Origin: a virus | IMG/VR virus record: IMGVR_UViG_3300045988_174698 | DNA: 64,000 bases | Reading direction: 5' to 3' (one strand) | Shown here: positions 24,439-61,845 of the stretch, one piece after another | Layout of the letters: every line of letters begins with the position of its first letter | How positions within the stretch are numbered: position 1 is the stretch's first letter | Program-made: the position numbers and the translations under genes | The notes under the pieces: generated by a model | What the model was told of the DNA's origin: nothing | The model's database searches: none | Seen by the model: only the letters and a program-made list of their open reading frames with translations

Positions 24439-24474
24439 ACTTATATCTTAAATAAAATATTAGTTACAACGACT

Positions 24475-35513: not shown

Positions 35514-36737
35514 TTAAAATCTATGCTCTATATCTATTATGCCTTTTTTGGGTCTAGTAGAAATTTCACCACCTTTTAATATAACATCTAACTGATCCTC
35601 AGTAATAGTTATATAAGATTGATTTTTATTAGCATTATTATACCAAGTTTCTTCTATAGAACCTGCAATCACTAATGTAAAAAACTCTGCAACTTTATTT
35701 TCTTCAGCTCTGATCACACGGCCAATACGTTGTAAATCAGTCACTTGAGAAGAATTACAAGTTAAAGCTATACCTACAGATAATCCTCTAACATCGACAC
35801 CAGCATCTAAAGCTTTAGGAGAAACAATATTAGCAATATCTAATTGATTAAATGTTTCAAGAATTATCCTATTCTCCTTTTTCTTTTTCTGACTATGCAA
35901 TACTAAAGCTCTGGATTTAAATAGCTCTGCATCTTTTACAGTAGCAGTAAACAATATACATTTCTTGTCTCGTCTAAAGTCTAGAATTTTATTTGCAACT
36001 TCAAACTTTTTAGGATGAGTCATGACAAAAGTTTTTCTTAGCTTTAAGTATTTCATAAACTGAGCTAAGTAACCTCTTGTAGCATTATCACTTTTCCCAT
36101 ATTTTTGGGCCCAAATTTTCACTTTTTTGGGTGATTTGACTAGCTCCATCACCAGTTTAAAATCGTGATTAAAATAAGCAAATAATTGTTGGAATTTAGC
36201 ATTATACTCTCAATATTTCTCCATATCAACATGTAGAAGAACTTTATATTTTCTGTATGAAGATACTCAGTTATTTTCTAATGCTTCTTGTAATGTAATT
36301 GTATCACAAACGGACATAAACTGTTCAAGATATTTTTCACTTCCGTCTAGACGAGTTCAGGTTGCAGTTAATCCTAAAAGATATTTATATTCTACACAGT
36401 TATAGATATTGATAAACGTTGGACTTGCAGATAAATGACATTCATCTACTACTAATAGGTCAACTTGATATTGCTGTTTAATGATAGTATTAAATATTTC
36501 TACTTTACAGATAGAAAAGAGTTGGTTTTTAGCCAACTCTCTATTTCACTGTTCTTTCAAAACATCTGTTGGAACAGCAACTAATACTACGATGTTAGGA
36601 TTATGCTTATATAACGATTTAATAACCATTATACTACCATTTGTTTTACCTGTGCCAGTAGCCCATTCAAGTACACCTCTACCACCACTATCAATTCAGC
36701 GTCTTATACCTAATTTCTGACGTTCATCTCGGTTCAT
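35514..36737 (-). CDS. SF2 DEAH-box DNA helicase (UvsW/Rad25-like)
   Basis: Walker A is EWATGTGKT, the DEAH box is LLVVDECH, and motif VI is TDLQRIGRVIR. The N-terminal half was reconstructed through TGA codons. Confidence 0.6.
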
Positions 36738-43199: not shown

Positions 43200-43808
43200 T
43201 TAGTTATCTATTATTTCAATATATCTCTGTTTAGGAGTAGTAACGTAAGGATTTTGATCTATAATAATAACTTCTATAACAGTATGTTTTCTAGTAAACC
43301 ATCGTGGTAGAAACCATTTTCGTGGTTTAATAGGTTCTTTATGAGAACTTAGAGTTATATACTTTTCATTATTATACTCATTACTTAAAGCTATTGTTCC
43401 TGGATAGGAAAGGTGTAGACAACTTCTGTTTCATTTATCTACAATACAAGTATCTAACACAAACCCAGGTTCTCTAAATATTGTATCTCTAATAACAATA
43501 GTATCTTTCTTAGAAAAATGTTCTAATTGATATTGTAACGCTTTAATTTTATTATCCTTAACTTTGTTCTCATTAGCTACTTTTTTCATTTTAAGCATTA
43601 AAGAATCGCTAAAGTATTCTAATTGCTCAATTGAAAGCTTAAATACACGATTACTTTCTTTTAATCATGAATTTTCCGCAGCATATGCTTTTTCATTATT
43701 TATAGAATTATCTAACGCAATATTCAGATTTCTAATTTTATTGGTCATAAAAATTATAGCCAATACAAGTAAAGTATAACTTAATATTCTTAAAATTATT
43801 TTTTTCAT
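43200..43808 (-). CDS. Hypothetical membrane-anchored protein (N-terminal TM helix), 2 TGA codons
   Basis: Manual translation reads MKKIILRILSYTLLVLAIIFMTNK... to ...QRYIEIIDN*. Confidence 0.35.
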
Positions 43809-44204: not shown

Positions 44205-44778
44205 TTATTGTTTATTAACAGTGTATCCATGATGTTCTAAAACTAGTTTACATAAGTTTAAGTACTCTTCTACAGTTAAATCACTTTTAGAATAATTAGC
44301 TGCAGGAGTTGTAATACCTAAATTTGATAAATCATTCGACCCGCCTTTAGAAACTGGTATTATATGATCAAAACAATAATCATCTTTTTCTAAATCAATA
44401 GGAGTGCCTGTTAAATAGCACTTTGTTTTTGTGCCAAATTTATTAATAATATCTAAAGTCTTAATTTTATTTAAACTCTTCATTCCTCTATTTTGAAAAT
44501 GTTCAATATATCTCCTTAAACGTTTACGTCATGTTCTATTAGAGATTCTTCTACATCCATGAGAGATTCTAGCACAAAAAGTACATAGTCTAGATTTAAT
44601 TCTCCCCTTAAGTGTATTACGTCATAATGAAGTAGATTTTCGTTGTTTACTATTAGTTATATCATTACAATAATATCCAACAATACTTTTGCTACATCCA
44701 AGTATCTTAGCAATTTCATTATAACTTTTATTATCACTTCTTAAAATAAGAATTTGTTCCTTTAACTTACTCATAATC
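44205..44778 (-). CDS. HNH endonuclease with N-terminal HTH (sigma-70 region-4-like) extension
   Basis: The C-terminal HNH motif is CYLTG...DHIIPVSKGGSNDLSNLG. Upstream in frame, through TGA codons, is SYNEIAKILGCSKSIVGYY. It starts 11 nt after the tRNA 3' end. Confidence 0.55.
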
Positions 44779-44788
44779 AACTTATTAG

Positions 44789-45226
44789 CACGAGCTCTCC
44801 GATTCGAACAGAGACCGTAGGGTTTGGAGCCCTACAATACGGTTTTGCTTACCACTATAGTTTTCACTACCAGTTTTACTGTTTGTAGTCTGGACTATAT
44901 CAGCTTGATATACAAGTGTGGCATTTAGTCTCTACACATTTATAGAGTAAAGTAGGATACATAGAGAAGTGTACGGCTTTAATTTTCGACCTACTAAGCA
45001 CTCCGCCTATTTTACACGGCATAAACAGCCTATGTTCTCTACTGTATTTTACTCTAATTTAGCTCGGTATTATCAGCTATCCATATTTCAGGACCTTAGA
45101 CTTTCTTAGAAAGCTGATTCGCATGATTTTTATCATCTTATTTCGCTTTTACCGAATTTGCCACAATTTTCACGCCAAGCGTGCTCCAATTCGAAGACCG
45201 CTGTGCTACCATTACACTAAGCTCGC
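44789..45226 (-). tRNA. Intron-containing tRNA gene; its 5' half (45226..45193) and 3' half (44848..44789) splice to a ~93-nt class-II-like tRNA with anticodon UCA; the alternative fold is tRNA-Trp(CCA)
   Basis: The acceptor pairs as GCGAGCT/AGCTCGT+G. The D-arm is GTGT-AATGGTA-GCAC and the T-arm is CTCTG-TTCGAAT-CGGAG. The 5' exon ends ...GCGGTCTT| (U) and the intron ends ...GTAAG| (G), giving the anticodon loop CTT|CAAA. The variable arm is GTAGGG-CTCCAAA-CCCTAC. Confidence 0.55.
44849..45192 (-). mobile_element. ORF-less group I intron (family R, copy 5) inserted in the anticodon loop of the tRNA gene
   Basis: Shared blocks are AGCTCGGTATTATCAGC and CCTATGTTCTCTACTG. The S-like element is GCTGATATAGTCCAGAC. 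The 3' end GTAAGCAAAACCG... resembles GATAACAAAATTG of copies 1-3. Confidence 0.5.
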
Positions 45227-45295: not shown

Positions 45296-46501
45296 TTATA
45301 AAGAAAATTTGCGAATTTTGGTTAAATAAATCTCTTTACGATATTGGTTAACTCCACCATAGTCACCATAACTCATCTGCACTTTACGAAGATGGTATAG
45401 CTTACCTCCCTCTAATTTTAATTTATCTGCTATATCCTTTGGAAAAGTAAAATCAATAACCTTGTCAACTGTTATTTTTTTATAGTTACTATCCTTTGAA
45501 TTTATAACATATATTAAGAAAGCACTTAATATAAGCAGGTACCACTTAATTTCAGAGTAATCTGTAGTGGGTCTTAAAAATCTGAATTCTACAGTTTTAT
45601 GGGCATCACCTGAAATTAAATGCATTATATTCATATTAAAATATCTACCGTGCACTTCCCACTTACGCTCCTCTGTTGAATCATATGAATTAGGTAAATA
45701 AAAACTTTGGTCATCATTATACTTATTACCAGTGAACCTTTTGTAGAATGTAGGGAGAGATGCAATACTCGGAAAAGGTTTATTGTAAGCTTTACCATTA
45801 CTTTTATAGCGTTCTGTATAGTAACTATATCTTGGTATGTACATACTAATAGACCATTGAAAATGGCACCAGAACTTACACAGACGATTAATATAACTAT
45901 TATTAATTGGAAAGTTACCAAAATGAATATGCAAAGAGCAGTTTTTATCGTAAAACGTGTATCTTTCAAGCAGTTTCAAATGCTGTTTAATAATAGGTAA
46001 ATCTATATGTGTTAATGGAAAAGTTACATATTCATGCCCATTAATTGAACCATCATACAGTGGTACTAGATTTGTATCAATACAACTTAACCAAGGTATG
46101 TTTCCTGCGGATGTTTCATATTCAAGGCCAAAGGTAAAGTCTTCAATATATGTAAATTCTTTATCAGGTATTAATTTAATATACTTAGGTTTTAAAGATA
46201 GTTTTGAAAAATTGTAACATCTATCTATTGGATAATTAAACACATATTTAGAATCTGTAATGATATTATTAGATAGTTTTAAATCTATCGTATAGCAACA
46301 AATATTATTTACCCAATATAATGGTATTTTGCAGTTCTCGCGTCTTTCCAAATAGGTAATTTTCCCTTCTATTACTAGAGGAATATTTAGTGGGTCTATT
46401 TCAAAATAACCATATTCTATATATGCGTAATCAATATAGATCACACCTCTTAGTAAGGTATCTCCAGTTTCCCACCTTTTTTTAGTATTATTGTACAGCA
46501 T
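45296..46501 (-). CDS. Amidoligase-like (COOH-NH2 ligase) protein, paralog 2
   Basis: It has a HIHFG motif and lies in the amidoligase/GATase/ATP-grasp neighbourhood. Confidence 0.4.
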   Translation of the reverse strand: MLYNNTKKRWETGDTLLRGVIYIDYAYIEYGYFEIDPLNIPLVIEGKITYLERRENCKIPLYWVNNICCYTIDLKLSNNIITDSKYVFNYPIDRCYNFSKLSLKPKYIKLIPDKEFTYIEDFTFGLEYETSAGNIPWLSCIDTNLVPLYDGSINGHEYVTFPLTHIDLPIIKQHLKLLERYTFYDKNCSLHIHFGNFPINNSYINRLCKFWCHFQWSISMYIPRYSYYTERYKSNGKAYNKPFPSIASLPTFYKRFTGNKYNDDQSFYLPNSYDSTEERKWEVHGRYFNMNIMHLISGDAHKTVEFRFLRPTTDYSEIKWYLLILSAFLIYVINSKDSNYKKITVDKVIDFTFPKDIADKLKLEGGKLYHLRKVQMSYGDYGGVNQYRKEIYLTKIRKFSL

Positions 46502-47810
46502 CTAAATTAACAAGTCTATTAGTTATAAACTGTAAAATCTGTGTTTCTAGTACTTCAAAATCGAATGTTGTATTTTCTGCATTATTCTTGAAAATTTCAA
46601 AAGCGCTAGGAGCATAGGTATATGTTGTAGAACTTACTCCATCTTTTACATTAACTTTATCAGGAGCATTAAATAGAGTAACATATGATCCTTCCATGTA
46701 CTTCATATAATTGAAGTCTTTGTCAACAGTAGTTAAGACACCATTAATAATTCGAGGATTATATGCAAAGTAATCAATAACTTCGGGACAATAAACAGAA
46801 AGAACATCATTTGTAAAAAGGTCATCTATATTTTCAAGGAAATCATAACTTTCTTTATTGGGTAACAATCGCCCATAGAAGAAGTAGAAAGTATGTCTAT
46901 ATGCGTTAGAGCTGGCATATGCTTCGGGTACTAAATGCCCAGAAGGATAAGCTAGATACATACCGTGTGCTGGAATTTCATTTAACATATACGTACCTGT
47001 AGTTTGACTGTAATATAAGTTATTAGAGGTATATGCTGGGGAATTATCCTTATAAGAAGCACCATATACTGGTATGCAAAGGGTTCTCCTTAATTTTTCA
47101 CGATTAATATTTCTAATACAGTAAACCTTGTTATCCTTAATTCGGCATAACTTATTTACAGGAAATTCATAGATTGTTTTTTTACAGTTGATGGAATATA
47201 GAGAAGCATACATCGACGAAAAATAAAGTTTACCCTCGTTAATCATATAAACTAAAGGTCGCTCAGATTTTGTTTTGTTTTCATTATAACAAGAGCTCCC
47301 TTTGAACATGAGTACTTCTGGAGTCAAAGATCTATAATCTACCATTATAAGAACAGCACAACCTGTATATTCTTCTAGAACATCATATCCATGTTCATAA
47401 ATAATTTCTGCCAAAATTTGAGAATCAGACATACCAAGAGTATTAGGTTCTGGAAGATATTTATTAGATAATTCTCCAATATTAAGAATAGTACCATTAT
47501 GCATTAGTACAAACTCAATTTTGTTACCACGTCTAATAACAACTGGCTGAGCCTGATCTAAATTCACAGGATATCCAGGAGAGGCCTTTCGACAATGTAA
47601 TAAAGCAATAGAAGCTGACTTTGGATAATTTATACTAGTAGTAAAGTTCCTAAATAATTTTCTGTCACTGACTCCATATTCTACCTTACCATCAATAAAA
47701 ATACCACAACTATCTCCCCCTCTTTCATCGTTTAGGGTTCCAAGTATATTAAAGTGGTTTATGTTAAATTCAGTCTTTTCAGTAGAAATTATTCCAGCTA
47801 GTCCGCACAT
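46488..47810 (-). CDS. Class II (Ntn) glutamine amidotransferase-like protein
   Basis: The N-terminal MCGLAGI has the catalytic Cys2. Confidence 0.55.
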   Translation of the reverse strand: MCGLAGIISTEKTEFNINHFNILGTLNDERGGDSCGIFIDGKVEYGVSDRKLFRNFTTSINYPKSASIALLHCRKASPGYPVNLDQAQPVVIRRGNKIEFVLMHNGTILNIGELSNKYLPEPNTLGMSDSQILAEIIYEHGYDVLEEYTGCAVLIMVDYRSLTPEVLMFKGSSCYNENKTKSERPLVYMINEGKLYFSSMYASLYSINCKKTIYEFPVNKLCRIKDNKVYCIRNINREKLRRTLCIPVYGASYKDNSPAYTSNNLYYSQTTGTYMLNEIPAHGMYLAYPSGHLVPEAYASSNAYRHTFYFFYGRLLPNKESYDFLENIDDLFTNDVLSVYCPEVIDYFAYNPRIINGVLTTVDKDFNYMKYMEGSYVTLFNAPDKVNVKDGVSSTTYTYAPSAFEIFKNNAENTTFDFEVLETQILQFITNRLVNLDAVQ

Positions 47811-48589
47811 ATTCCATAAAGTTTAATTAGATGTTCTGCCAGTACTTTATTAGATGTATTAATACACTTTTGAACTAAATCTCCTTCTGGCAAAGGAAAT
47901 CCTTCATTAAACATATCTACAGCTAACATAGTTTGTTTATAAATCATTGGAAGGTATTTGTCATTAAGCATAAAGCTACTTAGACATCTTGCTTCTACTC
48001 CCCACTCAGGACAACGGAAACTTCCTGCTTGACCATATAGAGTTCTTCTAAAAGTATCTCTATCATATAATACAGAAGGAACTCCACAGCATAGATCAAA
48101 GAACTTAATAAGCTTAACAGATGTATCAAAATTAGGGTTATCATATCCTATGTGAATGTGTGAACCTGCCACTCTTCTATTATCAGGATAACCTTGTGGC
48201 TTATCGTTTTCACACTCTGTATAAGCATCATAATCACTAGAACATCCAATTTCATTTGCTTTAGGATCAAGTAATTGATCTTCAGGCACGGGCATAGATG
48301 CACTACAACAAATATCAAGATTGTTATCGAATTGTTTAACCCAATTACGAATCCAATCTTTCATATATTTAATAGAATCTACAAATTCATTACTAGAAGT
48401 ACAAGGTGGGATATTAAATTCTCCTAAAATACAGTCAATCTCCACACCAAATCCTTTTGGCATGCCTTTAGTATATGGTTTACCTTTTTCTCCTGGAATT
48501 ATTCCAATTGCAGATACTACTTGGTTTGTTTTTGTATTAAAAATAAATAACTCGGGGTCTGCTCCAACTGTAATATTTTTAATTTTCAT
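47798..48589 (-). CDS. Amidoligase-like (COOH-NH2 ligase) protein, paralog 1
   Basis: It has a GSHIHIGYD motif and is Cys-rich. Confidence 0.4.
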   Translation of the reverse strand: MKIKNITVGADPELFIFNTKTNQVVSAIGIIPGEKGKPYTKGMPKGFGVEIDCILGEFNIPPCTSSNEFVDSIKYMKDWIRNWVKQFDNNLDICCSASMPVPEDQLLDPKANEIGCSSDYDAYTECENDKPQGYPDNRRVAGSHIHIGYDNPNFDTSVKLIKFFDLCCGVPSVLYDRDTFRRTLYGQAGSFRCPEWGVEARCLSSFMLNDKYLPMIYKQTMLAVDMFNEGFPLPEGDLVQKCINTSNKVLAEHLIKLYGICAD

Positions 48590-49226
48590 CTGCTATTAAT
48601 TTATCAATTATTTCATTTATTCTTATAACAATTGGTGATTCAGGTCTCATATATTCAGGATGTCCTTGGATAGCCAAACACTTTGGAAGATTTGGTCTGT
48701 CATACAAAACAATTTCAGGTTCACAAGGAGGAGACATAACATTATCTCCCTCATATATACTTGACCGATGACTAGTTGAATAAAACAAACATGTCCAATA
48801 CTTATATGGTATTATAAATGGATACTGCATTTGATGGTGTGTACTGGTAATTTCATACATTTTATTCGTACTTATCTCTGTAATAGAGTGAGTTATTCGA
48901 ATAGCATGATTTTCCACATTCTGAATAAGTATGCCACCATTCATAATACATAAATATTGACTGCCTCGGCAGATCCCCACAGCTAACTGATCAGGTCTGA
49001 TTTTCTCAAATTCTTTCTTTTCTGCGAGATCCCTTTGTAAATTAGCACAAGTAGTAGGATGAGGTTTACAGTTATACAAAGAAGGGTGTACATCTTCTCC
49101 ACCTGTAAAAATAACAATATCTGCATCGTTAATATCATCTACTAGCTCACGCTTAGTAATAAAATTAGCATAGTGTACTTGATTACCAACGACATATACT
49201 TTTTTTGTTTTTAGCATAGTATTCAT
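48579..49226 (-). CDS. Class I glutamine amidotransferase-like / gamma-glutamyl hydrolase-like protein
   Basis: The nucleophile elbow is GICRGSQ and the C-terminal HPE is present. Confidence 0.5.
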   Translation of the reverse strand: MNTMLKTKKVYVVGNQVHYANFITKRELVDDINDADIVIFTGGEDVHPSLYNCKPHPTTCANLQRDLAEKKEFEKIRPDQLAVGICRGSQYLCIMNGGILIQNVENHAIRITHSITEISTNKMYEITSTHHQMQYPFIIPYKYWTCLFYSTSHRSSIYEGDNVMSPPCEPEIVLYDRPNLPKCLAIQGHPEYMRPESPIVIRINEIIDKLIADEN

Positions 49227-49881
49227 TCGCTATAAAATTAATTCCCTTGACAATTTGAGGTAATTGCTTCGAGTTAAATACTCGAAGCAAATGGCACAAA
49301 CTATTATGTTCAGCCATAATCCTACAAAAACTTTCACTATAGTTAAAGTCCCTTCTAATTAAATTAAACTGGCACTTAGGATTAATGTTATAAAATGTTA
49401 GGTTATCTAATCCTGGGCAATGACATCTTCTTCCATCATGAAACAATGTAATATAAAGTTGCATAATTTGAGTAATATCCAATTCTGGAAAGTTTGCTCT
49501 ATTTTGCCATGCAGAGTATAATAATAACCAAAACGGATTTTCGTATACATATCTAATATACATAGCACTATAGACAAAGAATCTATTGTCAGGAGCACAC
49601 CTAATTTGTAATTTGTATGAATGTGTACTCTTTACAAGTGATATTAATGTAAACCCCAGTAGTCTTGAGATTTCCTTAAAGTACTCAATTAATGTTTTCG
49701 TATCAAATGTACAGTAGTTAAGCTGAACTTGTCTACTTCGAGGCCATATAATAGTAGCATAATAATAACCATTAAATTCACCTTGAGAACATCCCCTACT
49801 AAAACAAGCCATATTTTCATAAAAGTAATTACCAGCATAGTAATTACATTTATATTCTTTTCCTCTAAAATCTAGTATCAT
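49183..49881 (-). CDS. Hypothetical Cys/His-rich protein
   Basis: ORF track only. Confidence 0.3.
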   Translation of the reverse strand: MILDFRGKEYKCNYYAGNYFYENMACFSRGCSQGEFNGYYYATIIWPRSRQVQLNYCTFDTKTLIEYFKEISRLLGFTLISLVKSTHSYKLQIRCAPDNRFFVYSAMYIRYVYENPFWLLLYSAWQNRANFPELDITQIMQLYITLFHDGRRCHCPGLDNLTFYNINPKCQFNLIRRDFNYSESFCRIMAEHNSLCHLLRVFNSKQLPQIVKGINFIANEYYAKNKKSICRW

Positions 49882-50608
49882 AGTACTTTTTTAAATGATT
49901 CCCATAATAAGTTATCCCAAAAGAAGCCAGAGAAGGAGCTGTATTACTTTCAACAATGATATAACTATTATCACTACACAATATATCAAAGCAGGCAATT
50001 GTGAGGTCCATTTGTTTTAATGCCTTAATACAATCACTAATTATATTTTCCCAACATACAGGTAATTTGTGTTCCTCTGTTACTAAAACAAATATTGAAT
50101 TATCAGCATGTTTATGCCATTGTACTTCAGCGTCTTGTTTCAGCACTTTTTTACAAGCATAAAAACAACCATGATGAACATCAATATGTACTCTATATTC
50201 ATTTGGGAAGAAGTAATACTTTTCAAACACGAAATCCCTTATATTAACATTATTACATAGATCGTCTAAAGATTTGGGATTATCAATATAATAAATATTC
50301 TTCCCTTTCGATGAATGTTTATGTTTTGCTATAAGAATTTTGTGCTGCATAAAAAACTTATAAATGCTTGCTTTGTTAGAAGAACTAATCCATTCACTAT
50401 GAGATACACCCGCTTTGTCAAAGGCACGCTTCATTAATATTTTATTCCCAGAAGTTTTAACTCCCTCTATAGTATTAATTTCCAAATATTTATATTTAGA
50501 AATTAAAGGAGTTGTGCTCCCTAAACGTAGTAGTACTCTTTGATTAAAAGGTATACTACGTAAAGGAGCACAACTTGTATTTGGACTGAAAACTCGAAGT
50601 TTTAACAT
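49865..50608 (-). CDS. ATP-grasp enzyme (RimK/GshB-like)
   Basis: ILMKRAFDKAGV... and IIVESNTAPSL resemble the ATP-grasp C-terminal region. Confidence 0.45.
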   Translation of the reverse strand: MLKLRVFSPNTSCAPLRSIPFNQRVLLRLGSTTPLISKYKYLEINTIEGVKTSGNKILMKRAFDKAGVSHSEWISSSNKASIYKFFMQHKILIAKHKHSSKGKNIYYIDNPKSLDDLCNNVNIRDFVFEKYYFFPNEYRVHIDVHHGCFYACKKVLKQDAEVQWHKHADNSIFVLVTEEHKLPVCWENIISDCIKALKQMDLTIACFDILCSDNSYIIVESNTAPSLASFGITYYGNHLKKYYDTRF

Positions 50609-50609
50609 A

Positions 50610-51152
50610 CTATAGTTCTAATGCCTTATTATAGCAGTACACAGCCAGTTCCTTCTGGGTTAACTTATTATAATCAGCAAATTCAGCCCCATGGTCCTGT
50701 AAAAGCTTTGCAATATACTGTAGTTCGTGTTTTTTTAGTTTGCTAAATTGAGTGGCCGAGAATTCTGCGACCTTCTTATCAAGAGCAATTAATTTGAGGA
50801 ATACTTTTCCAAATGGTTTATTATTAAATTTATTAATATATACCTTTTGGTCAATATTATCCTCTACTGGGATAGCTTTAGGTTCAGGGTTAGGAACAAC
50901 CTCGTCATATGGGATAATCATAAATTCAGGTACCCATATGCCTATAGATAGAAAATATGGAATATCTGGGTCATTCTTATCTACATCCTCAATAACAGCA
51001 ACATTACCAAAATAGGGAAAATCAGAAAATAAGACATATTTCATGTCTTTGTTACAATAAACACCTTCTAAGTCAGGTGCTTCCTTGAGTAGATTATCCT
51101 TAAGTAAACAATCAAGATTTTTAATGATAACTTTGTCTCCTTGTTCAAACAT
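50610..51152 (-). CDS. Hypothetical protein
   Basis: ORF track only. Confidence 0.3.
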   Translation of the reverse strand: MFEQGDKVIIKNLDCLLKDNLLKEAPDLEGVYCNKDMKYVLFSDFPYFGNVAVIEDVDKNDPDIPYFLSIGIWVPEFMIIPYDEVVPNPEPKAIPVEDNIDQKVYINKFNNKPFGKVFLKLIALDKKVAEFSATQFSKLKKHELQYIAKLLQDHGAEFADYNKLTQKELAVYCYNKALEL

Positions 51153-51166
51153 AACTATTTTTATTT

Positions 51167-52243
51167 TTATTTGAAAAATGATAAATATTCTAATGGACTA
51201 ACAATTCTATATTTAGTCTTTCTAAACTCTAAAAGGTCAAAAGAATCTGAATAACTCATCATTGACCTTAAGTAGTCAACGAAATTTTCACACCAATCTT
51301 GTAACTTATACAAAACTGGAACTGTGGTTTCAATACCCTCAGCAGTTTTGAGTTTTTGGTTTCCTATTTCTATCTGTGCTTTTTTAGTAGACATACCATA
51401 GTATTTACGTCTGAGTCCTAGATTTGGATCTGTAACAGGTAGTAACTCTCCACAGGCTTCTTGAGATTGTGCAAAGAGTTTTCCAACCATTACATAATCA
51501 GCTCCAAGAGCTAGTGCTTTAATAATCTTATCATAATTATCAAATCCTCCGTCCGCAATAATAAATGGAACACTTTTGTATGGATGAGTTATTGAGTTAC
51601 AACCCAAGTAAAAACCAGAGTCACCCGCTATATTAACTACTTTTGTTTCTTCAATACATTTTTCTATAGCCCGCTTTTTATCAACAACTTCCTTAATTAA
51701 GGAAGCCATTGCATAGTGTATTCCACCATTAGCAGAAGTAGTACATACAGAACCTCCCCCTACACCTATCCGTACAAAATCAATTCCTGCTAGTGAATAA
51801 TCAGCATAAGTATCAGGGTTAGCAATATTGCCCGCCATTAATGACAATCGACCTCCAAATATAGACTTTGCTTGTGAGCATAAATCAATTAACTTTAACA
51901 TGTGGCCATTAGCAATATCAACACACACATAACGAATATCATTGGTGGTATCATATATATTTTCAAAATCTGTAATAAATCTTTCAAACTCAGATAAGCC
52001 AAGTGCAACAAACGTACTTGTAGACAACTCCCATCGTTTATCATAATCTACTCCTCTTGGAATAATTGTATTGATCTTATTTCTAAGAAAAACTTCATAA
52101 TTATTCTCATTAATAACAGAATTCATAGGAGCAGTAAATAACGGCAGCATACCATCAAAGTTATATGGATTACAGTCTGCACGATGTTCTATTCTACTGG
52201 TTCTAGCTGGTACTAAACAAATATCATTTAACCCATATGTCAT
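51167..52243 (-). CDS. guaC: GMP reductase (IMPDH/GuaC family TIM barrel without CBS domains)
   Basis: CVDIANGH, GIDFVRIGVGGGSVCTTS, IIADGG and ALGADYVMVG are present. Confidence 0.7.
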   Translation of the reverse strand: MTYGLNDICLVPARTSRIEHRADCNPYNFDGMLPLFTAPMNSVINENNYEVFLRNKINTIIPRGVDYDKRWELSTSTFVALGLSEFERFITDFENIYDTTNDIRYVCVDIANGHMLKLIDLCSQAKSIFGGRLSLMAGNIANPDTYADYSLAGIDFVRIGVGGGSVCTTSANGGIHYAMASLIKEVVDKKRAIEKCIEETKVVNIAGDSGFYLGCNSITHPYKSVPFIIADGGFDNYDKIIKALALGADYVMVGKLFAQSQEACGELLPVTDPNLGLRRKYYGMSTKKAQIEIGNQKLKTAEGIETTVPVLYKLQDWCENFVDYLRSMMSYSDSFDLLEFRKTKYRIVSPLEYLSFFK

Positions 52244-52416
52244 TTTTAATCTCTCTTAATTAGTTTATTTTTCTGTTCCTCAGTATCCCTAAATTTTTTT
52301 ATTTTTCTTTTCTTATTTAGACGAGCAATCTCTTCCTCGTACCTATTATATTTATCCAATTGATTACCTCGAATAAATTTACCCATGATAAAAAACAGAA
52401 TTTCAATTTTGATTTA

Positions 52417-53199
52417 CTATTGAATCTCTAAAGTACCTGGTTCCAGTCCAAGTTCTTTCTCGACTTCTGCGATTGTTTTCTTTACAACCTTATTCTTTAC
52501 TTTTGGCCAAGCAACATCCATTTTTGTGTAATCACTAAGTTTAAAACAGTGTGGTGTTGGAACAAAAATCTTCTTAACTTGGTAGAAACTCCCATTTTTA
52601 GGGGAATTAAAGCATCCACTTAAATAACCCTTAATTTCTCCTTTATTGTTAACATAAACAATAGCTTTAGAAGAAATAATAAATCCAAAATACTCTTGAT
52701 CTTTAACTATTAACTGTACTATTCGCCCAGGTAAAAACTCAGACTTAAAATCATTATTAAGATTAGAATCTACCTTATTATCCTCAACCTTATTTTTTTC
52801 TTTACCTAGAATCTTTTCAAACTGGTCTATAATAGATATGTCATTTGATTTTAATTCAGGTGATTCAAGTAATTTTAATAGATTCTTTTCTGATTTTAAA
52901 ATAATATCACTATATAGAGCAAGTTTATTCTCTTCTATATCATTAATACCTAACTCTTTAAGGATAGTGTTGTCATCATCTGAACAGAAGATATCACTAT
53001 CTCCAGTAAGGTAATGAATATTCTGATTATATGTAACAACATAATAAGATCTTTTATCTGTATCAATTAAGATCTTATAAGGGTGTCCTGAAAGTAATAA
53101 AGATATACTTACCTTAGGATAGTTTAATGTATATCCGTATCTACTTAAGATAAACAAAATGGTATTTAAACTGTTACCATTATATAATAAATAACGCAT
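52417..53199 (-). CDS. Hypothetical protein
   Basis: ORF track only. Confidence 0.3.
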   Translation of the reverse strand: MRYLLYNGNSLNTILFILSRYGYTLNYPKVSISLLLSGHPYKILIDTDKRSYYVVTYNQNIHYLTGDSDIFCSDDDNTILKELGINDIEENKLALYSDIILKSEKNLLKLLESPELKSNDISIIDQFEKILGKEKNKVEDNKVDSNLNNDFKSEFLPGRIVQLIVKDQEYFGFIISSKAIVYVNNKGEIKGYLSGCFNSPKNGSFYQVKKIFVPTPHCFKLSDYTKMDVAWPKVKNKVVKKTIAEVEKELGLEPGTLEIQ

Positions 53200-53252
53200 A
53201 ATTTGATTTTTTTGTTCTTTTTAGTTAAAAAACAGTAACAAGTGAAGGCTCA

Positions 53253-54185
53253 CTATTCTTTTACTTCTATAATTTTATATACAGAATTTTGAGTATGAAA
53301 ATGATTTTTATCTACGATTTTAGTTACAGGTGAGGTTGAGAAGCGAAATCCAAGACAAGCTCGAAACCCTACAGTTATAGGTAGACTTAAATATCCTTGA
53401 GTAAGGTACCCTTTATTGATTCCATTTGGATGATGACCTGGCTTATAATTACAAGTATCAGTATCTTCTAACTTTTCAATCTGAACTTTAGTTTGTGCAG
53501 GATAACTACACACCTCATAATATAATTCACGTACACTCCTCAAAGTTTCCTCATGGTGATCATCTGATTCAGGTATTGATCCTTCACAATCACATTTCTT
53601 TAATAGTAGTAATGCTTCGAAGTCAATACACTCTAGATTATTAGCTAACCTTAGAATAGCCGACTTGATATCTCTTTGTTTTAAAATATAAAGAGGTTGC
53701 ATGTGACACCTTACCAAAGAAAGAATAGCTCTTTTGTACTGAGGTTTAATATCAGAAATATATGTATCTAAAATATGTTCAGCAATTGGAACTCCTTTAA
53801 TTGCATGGTCCTTACAGTGGTAAAGTCCATCTTCTCCCTTTTTTGTAGTAACTGGTTTACCTATATCATGTAATAGAGCAGCAAAGATTAGAATATTTCG
53901 ATAGTCCATGTCTTGAAAAAGTACTTCATTACTGTTTTCAATATGCTTCAACATACATTTTGTAACCATACAAGTATGGGTGAAAGCGTCTCCCTCTTTA
54001 TGCCAAAGTATATTCTGAGGAGTTTCTGACAACGCTTTAAATTCAGGAATTTTTAAAAGTTCATCCCAAAAGACAATATTAGTTTTTGGATCATAAATCA
54101 TATTATATAATAAGATTATAAGAGATAATAGTAGTAACAAATAAAATAGCTGAAGATTTTGCAAAATGTATAAAAGTTGAATCAT
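53253..54185 (-). CDS. HD-domain phosphohydrolase with N-terminal hydrophobic segment
   Basis: ILIFAALLHDIGKP is an HD motif. Confidence 0.55.
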   Translation of the reverse strand: MIQLLYILQNLQLFYLLLLLSLIILLYNMIYDPKTNIVFWDELLKIPEFKALSETPQNILWHKEGDAFTHTCMVTKCMLKHIENSNEVLFQDMDYRNILIFAALLHDIGKPVTTKKGEDGLYHCKDHAIKGVPIAEHILDTYISDIKPQYKRAILSLVRCHMQPLYILKQRDIKSAILRLANNLECIDFEALLLLKKCDCEGSIPESDDHHEETLRSVRELYYEVCSYPAQTKVQIEKLEDTDTCNYKPGHHPNGINKGYLTQGYLSLPITVGFRACLGFRFSTSPVTKIVDKNHFHTQNSVYKIIEVKE

Positions 54186-54582
54186 AATCCGACATTATTA
54201 GAGATCCTATAGTAATTGCAAATAAAAGGGCAATTGACACTATAAAAATATCTCTATACACTTTGTATGTTTTGTTATTAGATACTACCCACCCTTTAAG
54301 TTTATATGTTAATATAACACCAGGTTTGTTATGGTATATATGGTAATCTTCTGGAGTAGCCTCAAAACTAAGTATTTTATTAGTTTTTATATCTTTTGCA
54401 ATAAGATACATCTTACCATTAGTTTTATAGCCTCCAGATATCTTTTCTCCTCCTATAATCTCACATTGATATGGATTAGTATTTACATAGTTACTAAATT
54501 CAGAGTAATGTAGATTCAAACTTATAAGTATAACTACTATAGAAGGAACCCAATAAGCTAAAATTTTAGAAGGTATATCCAT
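54103..54582 (-). CDS. Membrane protein
   Basis: Two hydrophobic segments. Confidence 0.3.
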   Translation of the reverse strand: MDIPSKILAYWVPSIVVILISLNLHYSEFSNYVNTNPYQCEIIGGEKISGGYKTNGKMYLIAKDIKTNKILSFEATPEDYHIYHNKPGVILTYKLKGWVVSNNKTYKVYRDIFIVSIALLFAITIGSLIMSDYDSTFIHFAKSSAILFVTTIISYNLII

Positions 54583-54583
54583 T

Positions 54584-55006
54584 TTATATCCATGTCTTTA
54601 AAGCTTCCAAAAAAGCTGATTCTAAAGCTTCTTCATATGTATTATAATCTACTCCACTTGCATCTATACTATGAGGAGGTCTTACAATTTTCTTAGAAGG
54701 ATCTATCTGAATATCAACGATTTTATATGTCCAATATCCATGAATAGTGGGAACTATTATAATATGTATCTTATGAATATCTCTTAACCATTTTTGAAGT
54801 TTAGATTGAGTTGGAGCTAAATAATAATTATCTGTAGGATCATAAAACTTACAATTCCAAAGCACTCCTTTTTCATCATAACAAGGGCTACAATTTACAT
54901 ATCCTAATTTTGGAAATAGTTTAGATATTCTATTTCCATCCATATAATGTTTTTCCTTTGCAAGTTTAGCAGTATCAAAAGTAATATGTGATTCCATTAT
55001 TCCCAA
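54584..55006 (-). CDS. Hypothetical protein
   Basis: ORF track only. Confidence 0.3.
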   Translation of the reverse strand: MGIMESHITFDTAKLAKEKHYMDGNRISKLFPKLGYVNCSPCYDEKGVLWNCKFYDPTDNYYLAPTQSKLQKWLRDIHKIHIIIVPTIHGYWTYKIVDIQIDPSKKIVRPPHSIDASGVDYNTYEEALESAFLEALKTWI

Positions 55007-55714: not shown

Positions 55715-57926
55715 TAAATAAATAGTTTATCTTACTATTTATATAAATATTATTATTAAAGTTTTTGAATATTCTTCATAAAAACTCTAGTAATAATATC
55801 TATATTCATCTTACATTGCTCAAATATATCTATTTTATAAGAATCTTTCAGTGGGCTATCCTCTTTGTATGGCCAATGTGCAATTATAAATTCATATTCA
55901 CATCTAGCCCAGTATTGATACATTAATTTTCTCGTTACAAAATCCTTACACTGCTCAAAATTTTCTTTAGAAGGTTTATCTGCTTTATAAGCATCATTAT
56001 ACTTTCTAACTAGGTAAGGCATTATATCATAATAGGTTGGTTTATTTTTATTATATTCTAACCATAATACTTTGAATGGTATCATAAATTTTACTATTAC
56101 AATTTTTCACCTAAATAATTAACTTCTATAACATTTAAATAGTTAACTTTAAATGGATAATCATCAACTATAGTATTATACTGTATACAAACACTTCTTT
56201 TATCTGTATCATGAAAGCAAGATACAACATGATTGAAATTGATATTACAGTTATATCCTTCACCTATAATATTAATAATATTTATCTTTTTCATATTGTA
56301 TTTATGTAAAAGCTCTTAGTAATAAAATCTTAACTTAAAATTCTAAGTGGTTTTTATACTTGGCAGCACATCGAAGAAACCTATATGGATCCTTTATAAA
56401 AATGCGTTTTATATTAGGATTTAAATGGCTAAGATCTGGGTAAAAACAAAAAAAGCCAAACTTACCTGTATCATCTAAAACAACAACAGAGCTCTGGATT
56501 TTATTACCTTTCATGTATATCTGAACGTCGAAATATGGCCTATACCCAAGTTTAACTAGACTGCTGTAAAATAAAAGGAATTGTTTAGATAATATTATAG
56601 TATATGGATATTCTTTCATTATAGTAGTGAATTAATTATTAAGATAGCTTTTTTACTGTCATAACGACCCTTGTAATCAGATTTAGGTATAATATTCAAT
56701 ACCTTATTGACAATATTCTCACCACTAGTAGCATATAATGCTCCACTTGGATGATAAAAATCATGTCGTAAATCTACAACAATTAATGTACGCTTCATAT
56801 AGTTAAATTAAGCATAATAAAATTTGAATAAAGTGTAGACTTTGATCAATATAATATGAAGTAAAATCCTTCATATACTTTTTATAAAGTCCTCTACACT
56901 TCCAGTAATCAATAGCATAATGTCCAACTAGTAACATTATTAATTTCCAAATTGCAGCTAATCCCAAAAAGTGTAATGCAATATAAATACCTAACGCCCA
57001 AATTGCACAATGTACAAACAAGACATAATTATTTTCACATTTATACTTCTTACAAAACTCATCTTGCAACGGATAGTCTAAAACTAAATTTAGAAAGTAA
57101 AGTATAATAAAATTTATCATTATCTAATCTTTATTTTTGAGAACAAACTTCCAATATCTAAGAAGATTTGTATTATCAATACAATAGTATTTACTACAGG
57201 AACCCATATTAAAAGGAAGATCCAATCATTATCTTGATCTACATAAAAAGAATAAAGATCACCTATTGTGCTTCCACACTTGTCTTCTTCAATCCAATCA
57301 AAATACAGGGAAACGTGTAAATAAACAACTCCTATTAGATAAATACCTAAAATAATTAAAAATGTATACATATTAATCCAGTTTTTCCCAGCATTCTTGA
57401 TCAAAATTCCAATGTCTAATATCACAAATATTAAACTCGAAACATAATCCAAGAATGCCGATATTAAAACAAAAGCCTGCATGATCCCCTTTATTATTAT
57501 AACTAATATGGAAATCAAGCAAGCCAAATGTATTGATGTTTATAAACAAATAATAACAAATACCAAATAGTTGAATATCAAAGTCAAAAAATTTTGATAA
57601 CTTAAAGATTTTAAATCTAATAGACATTTCTAATGATTTAAACTCTCCTATAGGGTGCACAAACACCCACCACAAAAAATCTAATTTACAAAGCTTCATA
57701 TTTTTCTTAAATTAGAGTAATAAGCGGTTATAGACTATACTTCTAATTTGGGTTAATAACTAATATTATTGTAATACTTTATATCTTCAATATAAGTTTT
57801 CTGTGTATCTCCAGTAGGCCCTATCATAATATTAGGTTTTATTGTTCCGCATGATATATTAAGTATTACTAAGACTATTATAACTATTTTTACTATTGTT
57901 TTCATCTTTATGTTATTAATGTTTAG

Positions 57927-59024: not shown

Positions 59025-59998
59025 TATAAACACTATCGTAGTTTGCACGTCTGATTTTTATTGCCACAGAAACTCCATACAAATGATCAATTTATATGTT
59101 AAGAGTTGTTACGCCGCTAATGTCAAATTTAGAAATAACTTATAATGACATAAATTGGTTATAGTTATCCTTGTATCCTATAGAAGTATTCACAAGAAGC
59201 TCGCCATGCATGCTTCTACCAGGCATTGGCACCATAAAGTCATTTCCATATATGTTAGTTAAAACACTTAAATATACTTCTGGAGCAGGAAACATTCCTC
59301 ACTCAAATTTAAGGTAAACCTTATTGTTATAGTCTCTAGCGTTTCTAAGACTTTGTATCTTATTTGGAAATGTAAGATTACCAAATGACTCTGTGGAGAG
59401 TACATTATATCGTTGTCGTAGCTCTTGATATTTTTCTCTAAGATATAAAAGTCTAGATGTGTTTTCCTTAGAAGAATCATAACATTGTATTCTTGTTTTT
59501 ACAGCCAGTGCTTCTAGTTTAATTAAGTGAAGCTGGTGCATAAACTTTTGTCTCTCAACTAGATCATCTGGAACATTATCAAAAGGACATATATCTATAA
59601 AGATCCCTTGGTTAAAGGTAAAATGACCTTCTAAATCCTTTTTGTGAATACATGTTGTGTCACTTCTTCTTAACTTCGTACAGCAATAAAAGGTACTGTC
59701 TGTTCAGTCATTTTGAACAAAATATGGATAATTCAACTCTTTAACTGCACACTCTAAAAATCTATCATAGTCTGTTCTAGGCATAGCAATATCAATATCA
59801 TCGTCCCATGGAATAAATCCACCATGTCTGACAGCACCAAGTAATGTTCCTCCATCTAAATAGTGCTTCAAATGATATTTATCACAGATATTTTTAAACT
59901 GTCATAGCAAATCTAGCTCAACTCCTCAAAGTTCTTTTCTTTCTTTAGACACCAAGAATCCATTTTTTACTTCTGCTTCAAAAAAGTTATCTGGTAAT

Positions 59999-61824: not shown

Positions 61825-61845
61825 AAGTTAAAAAGATTTTTGTGT

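What the first reader, a model, noticed from the sequence alone, without database searches (positions are those of the whole stretch)
45296..51152. Seven-gene cluster of amidoligase-like, Ntn-glutamine amidotransferase, class-I amidotransferase/gamma-glutamyl-hydrolase-like and ATP-grasp enzymes
Consecutive co-oriented genes, in minus-strand transcription order:
- hypothetical (51152..50610)
- ATP-grasp (50608..49865)
- Cys/His-rich hypothetical (49881..49183)
- GATase1-like with GICRGSQ...HPE (49226..48579)
- amidoligase-like with HIHIG (48589..47798)
- Ntn-type GATase starting MCGLAGI (47810..46488)
- second amidoligase-like with HIHFG (46501..45296)

This combination matches the phage and prokaryotic neighbourhoods predicted to make or ligate gamma-glutamyl or peptide-like moieties. 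Possible products are a novel small metabolite, a peptide tag on a protein, or a nucleotide/DNA modification. None of these has a biochemically defined product.

The cluster sits between the intron-containing tRNA and guaC, within a nucleotide-metabolism-rich region. This is compatible with, but does not prove, a role in base hypermodification.
Basis: partly seen in the sequence, partly recalled or inferred. Interest (0 to 1): 0.75.

Follow-up and report, generated by a model that had tools for sequence, protein, structure and literature searches.

The report
Phage glutamate-type amide-ligase gene cassette
This is a real, intact operon of three ATP-dependent amide-bond ligases and two glutamine/gamma-glutamyl amidohydrolases. 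It is a crAss-phage-type copy of a cassette already known, but never biochemically solved, in many phages, so it is a new member of a known puzzle.

Summary
Seven co-oriented, overlapping minus-strand ORFs sit exactly at 45296-51152.

Five are enzymes with intact catalytic motifs:
- a RimK-like ATP-grasp
- a class-I GATase (Peptidase_C26)
- a phiEco32-type COOH-NH2 ligase (PF14395)
- an Ntn class-II GATase
- an Amidoligase_2 (PF12224)

The other two are conserved non-enzymatic or unknown proteins. All seven are under purifying selection.

The set is the crAss-type version of the cassette predicted by Iyer et al. 2009 and Hardies et al. 2013 (phiEco32, RIO-1, LUZ24, PA11; labelled a "peptidoglycan modification module"). 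crAss-like phage cr108_1 has the same gene order. I found no experimental product in the literature.

The enzymes most plausibly build and trim a glutamate or gamma-glutamyl amide-linked moiety on a cytoplasmic acceptor. A peptidoglycan precursor is the leading but unproven candidate. Nothing supports DNA base hypermodification.

New here:
- A structure- and profile-supported accessory family (the Cys/His ORF matches cr108_1 gp029/gp030).
- A lineage-specific link to GMP-reductase-like and HD genes.
- The phage reads TGA as Trp, yet the whole block is TGA-free.
- The block is followed 69 nt downstream by an intron-containing tRNA(UCA).

Interest is moderate.

The parts
50610..51152 (-). 180-aa protein of unknown function, first gene of the tightly packed run. 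It has an N-terminal ~85-aa beta-rich part, a variable linker, and a conserved C-terminal helical part (KPFGKLFxKLIxLDxKIAEFS..LKKHELQYIAKLL). It is specific to this lineage.
   Evidence: No Pfam, PHROG, NCBIfam or PADLOC hit. 70 database relatives at >=43% identity (alignment A3). Always sits between the IMPDH-like gene and the ATP-grasp in relatives L011, L012, L013 and L014. dN/dS 0.18 against L011. Absent from cr108_1, LUZ24-like, PA11 and BUCT695 cassettes.
49865..50608 (-). ATP-grasp carboxylate-amine ligase, closest to the RimK / MptN / CofF alpha-L-glutamate ligases.
   Evidence: phrog_2599 at 6e-21. NCBIfam rimK_fam 31 bits and MptN 29 bits, both far below their cut-offs. Pfam RimK 18.5 bits, below the cut-off of 21. 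Invariant across six phages: K56, E72, G102, E137-x-R139-x-H141, K154, D208, E220-x-N222. 40% identical to cr108_1 gp028.
49183..49881 (-). 232-aa Cys/His-rich accessory protein of a crAss-type family. Fold and function are unknown. Conserved residues in the wider family are C26, R110, E114, P116 and H154.
48579..49226 (-). Class-I glutamine amidotransferase / gamma-glutamyl hydrolase-type enzyme (Peptidase_C26) with an intact Cys-His-Glu triad.
   Evidence: PF07722 48.7 bits against a cut-off of 20.5. phrog_7218 at 6e-29. The alignment to PDB 3fij pairs GICRG with AICRG and QGHPE with QWHPE. Motifs are conserved in cr108_1, L011 and PA11. In relative L003 a group I intron (RF00028, 61.9 bits) splits the gene just after the catalytic Cys codon.
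47798..48589 (-). phiEco32-type COOH-NH2 ligase type 2, a glutamine-synthetase / gamma-glutamylcysteine-ligase-like fold.
   Evidence: PF14395 30.8 bits against a cut-off of 25. phrog_3815 at 8.9e-55. tblastn finds it in 313 phage records; the best is cr108_1 at 46%. Invariant residues include G9-x-D11-P12-E13, D52, E57, H144-x-H146, R181-R182, E199-x-R201. In relatives the gene is split by an insertion just before HIHIG.
46488..47810 (-). Class-II (Ntn) glutamine amidotransferase / gamma-glutamyl amidohydrolase domain (residues 1-240), a disordered linker (245-261), and a well-folded C-terminal domain (262-440) that matches no known synthase domain.
45296..46501 (-). Amidoligase_2 (GS-like carboxylate-amine ligase) with an N-terminal ~115-aa extension shared with the crAss-type copies.
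   Evidence: PF12224 24.2 bits against a cut-off of 22. phrog_2443 at 1.5e-8. 31% identical to cr108_1 gp034, and also found in Cellulophaga phi14:2. Invariant G125-x-E127-x-E129, D150-G-S, E157-Y, H191-x-H193, R231, E305-F-R307.
51167..52243 (-). IMPDH/GMP-reductase-family enzyme with no CBS insert and a GGGSVCTT catalytic loop. It is probably a GMP-reductase-like nucleotide-pool enzyme. It is linked to the cassette only in this lineage.
   Evidence: PF00478 at 5e-35. The best NCBIfam models are GMP reductase (112 bits, far below the cut-off of 397). PDB hits are split between IMPDH and GMPR. Conserved directly upstream of the cassette in L003, L011, L012, L013 and L014. Absent next to the cassette in cr108_1, L015, L017, UFV-P2, PA11 and BUCT695.
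52417..54185 (-). A 260-aa unknown protein (52417-53199) and an HD-domain phosphohydrolase (53253-54185), conserved upstream of the IMPDH-like gene in this lineage. Both are TGA-free like the cassette.
   Evidence: HD PF01966 at 1.7e-8. Orthologues in L003, L011, L012, L013 and L014. TGA counts.
44789..45226 (-). tRNA with anticodon UCA (reads UGA), interrupted after position 34 by a 346-nt intron. It starts 69 nt downstream of the Amidoligase_2 stop codon on the same strand.
   Evidence: Exons read. The spliced sequence folds as a canonical cloverleaf in ARAGORN. Intron-aware ARAGORN calls tRNA(tca) with introns of 633 nt (L002, L003) and 1216 nt (L011) at the same place. The 5' exon is 100% conserved in L002-L007.

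Best explanation
**What it is.** The cluster is one operon. It is a crAss-phage-type copy of the known phage amidoligase / ATP-grasp / amidotransferase cassette, the phiEco32 / RIO-1 / LUZ24 'peptidoglycan modification' module.

**How it most likely works.**
- Three soluble cytoplasmic ATP-dependent carboxylate-amine ligases each make one amide bond through an acyl-phosphate. They are a RimK-like ATP-grasp and two glutamine-synthetase-fold ligases.
- Two thiol amidohydrolases that recognise glutamine or gamma-glutamyl groups act alongside them. One is a Peptidase_C26-type class-I enzyme and one is an Ntn class-II enzyme. They either deliver ammonia to ligase-activated carboxylates (amidation) or remove a gamma-glutamyl handle.
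- The net result is a glutamate/glutamine-derived amide-linked moiety that is built and trimmed on a cytoplasmic acceptor during the early or middle phase of infection.

**Likely acceptor.** The leading candidate is a peptidoglycan precursor stem peptide (roughly 0.25-0.3 on its own). That would mirror known wall chemistry, from my own knowledge: GatD/MurT (class-I GATase plus ligase) amidates D-iso-Glu, AsnB1/LtsA (class-II GATase) amidates mDAP, and ATP-grasp ligases add side-chain amino acids.

**Accessory proteins.** The Cys/His protein and the 180-aa protein are non-catalytic or unknown accessories, possibly substrate adaptors.

**Shown:** gene content, intact catalytic residues, operon packing, conservation, membership of the cassette.

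**Inferred:** the chemistry theme, the pairing of amidohydrolases with ligases, the timing, and the acceptor.
For: Family assignments and intact catalytic motifs for all five enzymes.

All nearest characterised relatives act on Glu, Gln or gamma-glutamyl substrates:
- RimK / MptN / CofF alpha-L-Glu ligases
- YbdK / GCS2
- Peptidase_C26 and gamma-glutamyl-CDP-amidate hydrolase
- PurF / GlmS / AsnB / EgtC

The Ntn domain keeps R74 and D129. By position these correspond to the residues that hold the alpha-carboxylate and alpha-amino group of glutamine in GlmS (my own knowledge).

Overlapping reading frames indicate co-translation.

The gene order is the same in cr108_1, L011, L013, L014, L015 and L017. 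The core set recurs in unrelated phage families next to primase/helicase genes.

Other phages add a gamma-glutamyl cyclotransferase to the set.

No cassette protein has a transmembrane-grade hydrophobic segment.

The block has zero in-frame TGA in a genome that otherwise uses TGA for about 36% of Trp codons. This fits translation before suppression is established.

The same phage carries other envelope-modifying genes, LicD plus an IspD-like cytidylyltransferase.

The published prediction is for peptidoglycan side-chain linkages (PMC5498523; PMC11945000).
Against: - I found no experiment anywhere that defines a product.
- The acceptor is pure inference.
- The ligase-amidohydrolase pairing is only partly conserved. 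LUZ24-like and BUCT695 cassettes lack the class-I GATase. In PA11 the Ntn gene is next to the other ligase.
- The Ntn C-terminal domain matches no synthase or docking domain.
- A lytic phage can modify only newly made peptidoglycan, so the benefit is unclear.
- The cassette occurs in phages of hosts with different wall chemistries.
Confidence: 0.5

Rival explanations
1. Small-molecule gamma-glutamyl metabolism. The cassette makes or recycles a glutathione-like or gamma-glutamyl-amine compound, for example gamma-glutamyl-polyamine. This would parallel GshA (GCL fold) plus GshB (ATP-grasp), PuuA/PuuD, EgtA/EgtC, and GGCT or Dug3-type degradation. The purpose would be to adjust host thiol, polyamine or nitrogen pools for phage replication or DNA packaging.
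Against: No characterised orthologue reaches any curated cut-off. Three ligases plus conserved non-enzymatic accessory proteins suggest a macromolecular or more elaborate acceptor. There is no transporter or further tailoring gene in the block.
Confidence: 0.2
2. Protein modification. The RimK-like ATP-grasp and the GS-fold ligases add glutamate or another amino-acid tag to a host or phage protein, as RimK does on ribosomal protein S6 or PafA does with Pup. The amidohydrolases would process the tag, as Dop does. The goal would be to reprogram translation or another host machine.
For: The nearest family of the ATP-grasp is RimK. GS-fold ligases include the Pup ligase PafA (my own knowledge). 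Conserved small accessory proteins could be the tag or the adaptor. The block is early and TGA-free and sits next to a UGA-decoding tRNA, which places it among translation-related features.
Confidence: 0.15
3. Nucleotide or DNA/RNA base hypermodification. The ligases attach a glutamyl or amide moiety to a base or nucleotide, with the GMP-reductase-like and HD enzymes supplying or processing a purine substrate.
Against: The guaC/HD linkage is absent from every other cassette type examined. The ORFs I scanned include ThyX, RNR, primase and helicases. They show no 5-hmdU kinase, aGPT-Pplase, hydroxymethylase or DpdA, though the scan was partial. DNA of LUZ24-like phage U17, which carries the cassette, was cut by 11 of 16 restriction enzymes (PMC11945000). 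The little-finger match is near noise. In a 29% GC genome, guaC is simply explained as shifting G nucleotides towards A.
Confidence: 0.1

Closest known systems
crAss-like phage cr108_1 (NC_055878) genes gp028-gp034
   Same: The order is the same: ATP-grasp, Cys/His-family protein(s), class-I GATase, COOH-NH2 ligase, Ntn GATase, Amidoligase_2. Identities are 31-46%. The accessory family is shared by both sequence profile and predicted structure. Both lie in the replication region.
   Different: cr108_1 has two paralogous accessory proteins (300 and 329 aa) where the window has one of 232 aa. It lacks the 180-aa protein and the guaC-like/HD genes; its cassette sits between primase and uracil-DNA glycosylase. 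The C-terminal domain of its Ntn protein is not detectably similar by BLAST.
phiEco32 / RIO-1 / LUZ24 / PA11 'peptidoglycan modification cassette' (Iyer et al. 2009; Hardies et al. 2013; PMC5498523)
   Same: The core is shared: COOH-NH2 ligase type 2, Amidoligase_2, Ntn GATase and ATP-grasp, clustered next to replication genes. The function is predicted, not measured.
   Different: Those cassettes usually include a gamma-glutamyl cyclotransferase and a different ~185-aa protein, plus two ~280-310-aa unknown proteins. None of these is detectable here. LUZ24-like and BUCT695 versions lack the class-I GATase. The gene order differs.
Peptidoglycan amidation and side-chain enzymes GatD/MurT, AsnB1/LtsA and ATP-grasp D-Asp ligase (my own knowledge)
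   Same: The logic is the same: a class-I GATase plus an ATP-dependent ligase, a class-II GATase amidating a stem-peptide carboxylate, and an ATP-grasp adding an amino acid. All act on cytoplasmic precursors.
   Different: There is no sequence-level membership. MurT is a Mur-ligase fold, not a GS fold. AsnB1 and LtsA carry a PP-loop synthetase domain, which the phage Ntn protein lacks. This is an analogy only.
Gamma-glutamyl handle pathways: PuuA/PuuD, EgtA/EgtC, GshA/GshB with GGCT (my own knowledge)
   Different: No protein reaches the curated cut-offs of those families. The substrate-defining partners (EgtB/D, Puu dehydrogenases) are absent.
RimK (ribosomal protein S6 alpha-L-glutamate ligase)
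   Same: It is the best-scoring named family for the ATP-grasp, and the ATP-grasp catalytic motifs are shared.
   Different: The score is 31 bits against a family cut-off of 143. The protein is 247 aa. No RimA/RimB partners are present.

Membership tests
Phage amidoligase/ATP-grasp/GATase cassette (phiEco32-RIO-1-LUZ24 type) | COOH-NH2 ligase type 2 (PF14395) present | tested here: met
   30.8 bits against a cut-off of 25; phrog_3815 at 8.9e-55; catalytic residues invariant.
Phage amidoligase/ATP-grasp/GATase cassette (phiEco32-RIO-1-LUZ24 type) | Amidoligase_2 (PF12224) present | tested here: met
   24.2 bits against a cut-off of 22 (marginal); phrog_2443 at 1.5e-8; the ExE, HxH and EFR motifs are invariant across six phages.
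Phage amidoligase/ATP-grasp/GATase cassette (phiEco32-RIO-1-LUZ24 type) | Ntn (class-II) glutamine amidotransferase present | tested here: met
Phage amidoligase/ATP-grasp/GATase cassette (phiEco32-RIO-1-LUZ24 type) | ATP-grasp ligase present | tested here: met
   Below the Pfam cut-off (18.5 against 21), but phrog_2599 at 6e-21, 40% identity to the cr108_1 ATP-grasp, and invariant ATP-grasp motifs.
Phage amidoligase/ATP-grasp/GATase cassette (phiEco32-RIO-1-LUZ24 type) | Gamma-glutamyl cyclotransferase (AIG2/GGCT) in the cassette | tested here: not met
   tblastn with the UFV-P2 and BUCT695 GGCT proteins gives no hit in the window. cr108_1 also has no annotated GGCT in the 18.8-kb region shown around its cassette, so this is an optional component of the crAss-type variant.
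Phage amidoligase/ATP-grasp/GATase cassette (phiEco32-RIO-1-LUZ24 type) | Genes contiguous, co-oriented, and in the early/replication region | tested here: met
   Overlapping ORFs. Neighbours are RNR, ThyX, primase, helicases and DNA polymerase.
Phage amidoligase/ATP-grasp/GATase cassette (phiEco32-RIO-1-LUZ24 type) | Modifies peptidoglycan side chains (the function the name claims) | not testable with these tools
   This is a prediction only in the literature. It needs muropeptide analysis.
Class-I GATase / Peptidase_C26 | Cys-His-Glu triad in the nucleophile-elbow and HPE motifs | tested here: met
   GICRG and QGHPE align to PDB 3fij and are conserved in four cassettes.
Class-II GATase fused to a synthase domain (PurF, GlmS, AsnB type) | A recognisable acceptor/synthase domain after the Ntn domain | tested here: not met
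RimK family alpha-L-glutamate ligase | Score above the curated family cut-off | tested here: not met
   TIGR00768 31.4 bits against a cut-off of 143.4. It works like an ATP-grasp ligase, but membership is not shown.
GMP reductase (GuaC), for the flanking gene | Score above the equivalog cut-off; catalytic Cys loop; no CBS domains | tested here: inconclusive
   The best models are GMP reductase, but 112 bits against a cut-off of 397. GGGSVCTT is present and the protein is 358 aa without an insert. PDB hits are split between IMPDH and GMPR.
Thymidine hypermodification clusters (Lee et al. 2021) | 5-hmdU DNA kinase, aGPT-Pplase, dUMP hydroxymethylase or TET/JBP next to the amidoligase genes | tested here: not met
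   None was found among about 40 ORFs scanned. ThyX (PF02511), which makes canonical dTMP, is present. The scan did not cover every small ORF.

The most novel reading that the evidence does not exclude
In this lineage the cassette may not be a wall-modification module. It may instead attach a glutamyl or amide group to a purine nucleotide, a tRNA, or a translation factor.

It would then form one early, TGA-free programme together with the GMP-reductase-like and HD enzymes and the intron-containing tRNA(UCA) that ends the block. Under this reading the operon helps switch the infected cell to reading UGA as Trp, or creates a new nucleic-acid modification.
Probability: 0.08. Interest if true: 0.85.

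Novelty: new member of a known kind. Interest (0 to 1): 0.35.

Why it matters
This cassette was predicted in 2009 and occurs in at least 313 annotated phage genomes as well as in gut crAss-type phages. It is one of the most widespread phage enzyme sets with no known product.

This copy adds three things:
- It shows the cassette extends into a roughly 165-kb, TGA-recoded gut phage lineage.
- It defines a crAss-type accessory protein family.
- It shows that the block avoids the recoded codon and is followed by the UGA-decoding tRNA, which suggests early expression.

It does not itself reveal the chemistry. The real pay-off would come from experiments on cultured carriers such as LUZ24, phiEco32 and PA11.

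Tried and rejected
**Similarity and structure searches that gave nothing**
- Megablast of the cluster against phages: no match.
- PDB sequence searches for Amidoligase_2, the COOH-NH2 ligase, the Ntn GATase and the ATP-grasp: nothing.
- Pfam on 46 members of the Cys/His family and 28 members of the 180-aa family: only scattered single weak hits. My impression that the 180-aa C-terminus is HeH/SAP-like remains untested.
- PADLOC: no defence-system hits in the seven genes.
- A PDB search with the RNR C-terminus, to read the residue at its TGA codon, found nothing.

**Context checks**
- Promoter and terminator scans were at or below shuffle expectation.
- NAD-salvage genes (NAPRTase, NadE, NMNAT-like, NUDIX, R2K) lie upstream in relatives L011 and L012. 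They are absent from the window apart from a YqeY remnant, so they are not part of the system.
- Host: the MAG labels of relatives disagree (Bacilli, Bacteroidales 'Ca. Scybalousia', Anaeroplasmataceae, Peptococcaceae, Alistipes, Romboutsia). The host therefore stays unresolved.
- I tried using archaeal (Poseidoniales) viruses to test the peptidoglycan idea. It was inconclusive because those host assignments are themselves predictions.

**A corrected false negative**
- Default ARAGORN and Rfam gave a false negative for the flanking tRNA. Intron-aware searching corrected it.

**Unavailable sources**
- The Iyer 2009 and Hardies 2013 papers were not available to read. Their content is cited through papers that quote them.

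Full report

Yes.
- 50610-51152
- 49865-50608
- 49183-49881
- 48579-49226
- 47798-48589
- 46488-47810
- 45296-46501

They are packed like an operon: a 1-nt gap, then overlaps of 17, 44, 11, 13 and 14 nt.

Profile searches confirm five enzyme families:
- Amidoligase_2: PF12224, 24.2 bits, just above the cut-off of 22.
- Ntn class-II GATase: GATase_6 at 4e-12.
- phiEco32-type COOH-NH2 ligase type 2: PF14395, 30.8 bits; phrog_3815 at 9e-55.
- Peptidase_C26 / class-I GATase: 48.7 bits.
- ATP-grasp: below the Pfam cut-off, but phrog_2599 at 6e-21 and nearest to the RimK, MptN and CofF glutamate ligases.

The HIHIG protein is therefore the PF14395 family rather than Amidoligase_2. Both are glutamine-synthetase-like ligases.

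Against a relative at about 55-70% protein identity, all ten genes of the wider block have dN/dS between 0.10 and 0.24. This includes the two unassigned ORFs, so they are real genes.

**2. Are the enzymes likely active?**

Alignments across very different phages keep the catalytic signatures.

| Enzyme | Conserved residues |
|---|---|
| Amidoligase_2 | G-x-E-x-E, DGS, E-Y, H-x-H, E-F-R |
| COOH-NH2 ligase | G-x-D-P-E, D52/E57, H-x-H, RR, E-x-R |
| ATP-grasp | E-x-R-x-H and the Mg2+ triad D208/E220/N222 |
| Class-I GATase | G-x-C-R-G and Q-G-H-P-E, aligned to PDB 3fij |
| Ntn protein | C2, R74, N105-G106, D129 in 36 homologues |

None of the seven proteins has a membrane-grade hydrophobic segment.

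**3. The two unassigned ORFs.**

*The Cys/His-rich 232-aa protein.* It belongs to a small family: 16 close database relatives and 88 representative clusters by profile search.
- Its profile detects cr108_1 gp030 and gp029, which occupy the same position in that phage's cassette.
- Its AF2 model (pLDDT 77.5, pTM 0.82) matches those two proteins and two from another crAss-like virus in BFVD, at E 5e-7 to 7e-4.
- A tentative GS-fold lead failed profile-profile testing.

It is therefore a conserved accessory component of the crAss-type cassette, with unknown fold and role.

*The 180-aa protein.* It is restricted to this lineage (70 relatives). It has two conserved parts joined by a variable linker and matches no library family.

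**4. What genome and context?**

The window is 26-34% GC.

Close relatives at 80-100% protein identity across the ten genes of the block are IMG/VR contigs of 100-168 kb.

The cassette proteins are closest to crAss-like phage cr108_1 and Cellulophaga phi14:2. The helicase is closest to uncultured human-gut phages and crAss-like phages.

The host is unresolved because MAG bin labels disagree.

The surroundings are replication and nucleotide-metabolism genes: RNR, ThyX, DNA polymerase, primase, helicases and a Sak4-like ATPase.

In this lineage the order is kept down to about 43-50% identity in L011, L012, L013 and L014:

HD - (unknown) - IMPDH/GMP-reductase-like - 180-aa - ATP-grasp - Cys/His - Peptidase_C26 - COOH-NH2 ligase - Ntn GATase - Amidoligase_2

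The HD and guaC-like genes are not next to the cassette in cr108_1, L015, L017, UFV-P2, PA11 or BUCT695.

**5. Comparison with what is known.**

The core set recurs in LUZ24-like phages, PA11 and Aeromonas phage BUCT695, always beside primase/helicase genes. tblastn finds the PF14395 ligase in 313 phage records.

The literature calls it a "peptidoglycan modification cassette" and credits Iyer et al. and Hardies et al. 2013 (PMC5498523; PMC11945000). All the statements are predictions.

I found no experimental product.

The window's version is the crAss-type variant:
- It has a class-I GATase and the Cys/His accessory family.
- It lacks GGCT.
- It lacks the ~185-aa and ~280-310-aa unknown proteins of the LUZ24-type cassettes.

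**6. How it most likely works.**

Every nearest characterised relative handles glutamate, glutamine or gamma-glutamyl amides. The best-supported reading has three parts:
- Three ATP-dependent ligases each form an amide bond.
- Two thiol amidohydrolases either feed ammonia to activated carboxylates or remove gamma-glutamyl groups.
- Together they build and trim a Glu/Gln-derived moiety on a cytoplasmic acceptor.

The leading acceptor is a peptidoglycan precursor. From my own knowledge, D-iso-Glu is amidated by GatD/MurT (class-I GATase plus ligase), mDAP by AsnB1/LtsA (class-II GATase), and side-chain amino acids are added by ATP-grasp ligases. This is an analogy, not homology.

The phage also carries LicD and an IspD-like cytidylyltransferase. 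It therefore appears to manipulate the envelope in other ways too.

The rivals are a small gamma-glutamyl metabolite (analogous to GshA/GshB, PuuA/PuuD and EgtA/EgtC), protein glutamylation (RimK-like), and nucleotide or nucleic-acid modification.

The nucleic-acid option is the least supported:
- The guaC/HD link is lineage-specific.
- ThyX, and no known hypermodification enzyme, was found among the ORFs scanned.
- DNA of a cassette-bearing LUZ24-like phage was cut by 11 of 16 restriction enzymes (PMC11945000).

A GMP-reductase-like enzyme in a genome of roughly 29% GC is simply explained as shifting guanine nucleotides towards adenine.

**7. Things found on the way that change how the region should be read.**

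*(a) The phage reads TGA as Trp.*
- With TGA as sense, many long ORFs appear. One has 1,466 codons and 14 TGAs at 1761-6161 (+).
- Opposite the window's in-frame TGAs, relatives have TGA 69 times, TGG 14 times, and other codons twice.
- The block from 45296 to 54997 has no in-frame TGA. The ten genes from Amidoligase_2 to HD alone hold 24 TGG and 0 TGA. Elsewhere TGA makes up about 36% of Trp codons. The chance of that under uniform usage is about 2e-5 (my arithmetic).

- It lies at 45226-44789 (-), 69 nt after the last cassette gene.
- It has a 346-nt intron after position 34 and, once spliced, the anticodon UCA.
- Relatives carry the same tRNA with introns of 633 nt and 1,216 nt.

*(c) Relatives have introns in two cassette genes.*
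- In L003 the class-I GATase gene is split by an insertion just after the catalytic Cys codon. This insertion is a group I intron by Rfam (61.9 bits).
- The COOH-NH2 ligase gene is split just before H-x-H.
- The window's copies are uninterrupted.

Together these facts suggest the cassette is translated early, before UGA suppression is established. That is an inference.

**8. Verdict.**

The cassette is already known as an unsolved predicted system, so this is a new member of a known kind with some lineage-specific features. Interest is moderate at 0.35. It would rise sharply only if the product proved to be something other than the long-standing predictions.

Noticed in passing
whole window; e.g. 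1761-6161 (+), 29282-30319 (-), 35514-36737 (-), 43200-43808 (-): TGA is read as a sense codon, almost certainly Trp. There are 77 in-frame TGAs against 137 TGGs in ORFs called with TAA/TAG stops only, including a 1,466-codon ORF with 14 TGAs. In relatives TGA interchanges almost only with TGG. Table-11 ORF lists therefore fragment many genes in this window. For example the Dda-like helicase becomes 462 aa at 22174-23562.
   Followed up: yes
45296-54997 (-): The cassette, the guaC-like gene, the 260-aa ORF, the HD gene and two further ORFs contain no in-frame TGA, although neighbours on both sides do. The ten genes from Amidoligase_2 to HD alone have 24 TGG and 0 TGA. This suggests the block can be translated before UGA suppression is set up.
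   Followed up: partly
44789-45226 (-): A tRNA with a long variable arm and anticodon UCA, split after position 34 by a 346-nt intron. Default ARAGORN and Rfam missed it. Relatives carry the same tRNA with larger introns of 633 and 1,216 nt that hold HNH- or LAGLIDADG/PD-(D/E)XK-type ORFs. Which amino acid it carries was not determined. Rfam did not score the window's intron as group I.
   Followed up: partly
L003 9357-9588 and about 10430-10793 (relatives of window 48579-49226 and 47798-48589): In close relatives the class-I GATase gene and the COOH-NH2 ligase gene are each interrupted at a catalytic motif, after GICR and before HIHIG. The first insertion is a group I intron by Rfam (61.9 bits). 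The second shares its 3' end motifs. The window's copies are intron-free.
   Followed up: partly
61842-62263 (-): A phage-encoded tmRNA (RF00023, 52.3 bits against a gathering score of 47). It lies next to a cluster of seven standard tRNAs at 55.6-61 kb.
   Followed up: no
59140-60679 (-): A LicD-family transferase (136 bits, containing 4 in-frame TGAs) next to an IspD-like cytidylyltransferase (96 bits). This pair looks like a system for making and transferring a CDP-activated alcohol phosphate onto a cell-surface polymer.
   Followed up: no
L011 1-4900 and L012 1-2500; window 56338-56681: Relatives carry an NAD-salvage set (NAPRTase, NAD synthase, NMNAT-like, YqeY, NUDIX) and an R2K ATP-grasp upstream of the HD gene. 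The window retains only a YqeY C-terminal remnant and the following small ORF.
   Followed up: partly
53253-54185 (-): The HD-domain ORF as listed begins with a strongly hydrophobic stretch (Kyte-Doolittle 2.33) and overlaps the upstream ORF by 83 nt. The true start is probably the internal Met at residue 29, or else the protein has a membrane anchor.
   Followed up: no
24460-25881 (-), 16328-17095 (-), 17631-18662 (-): The RNR and DNA polymerase appear as partial pieces matching only parts of their profiles. This suggests further split genes (introns, inteins or homing-endonuclease insertions) in addition to the TGA effect. HNH and LAGLIDADG-like ORFs are scattered nearby (11468-12619, 10066-11259, 44205-44774).
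   Followed up: no
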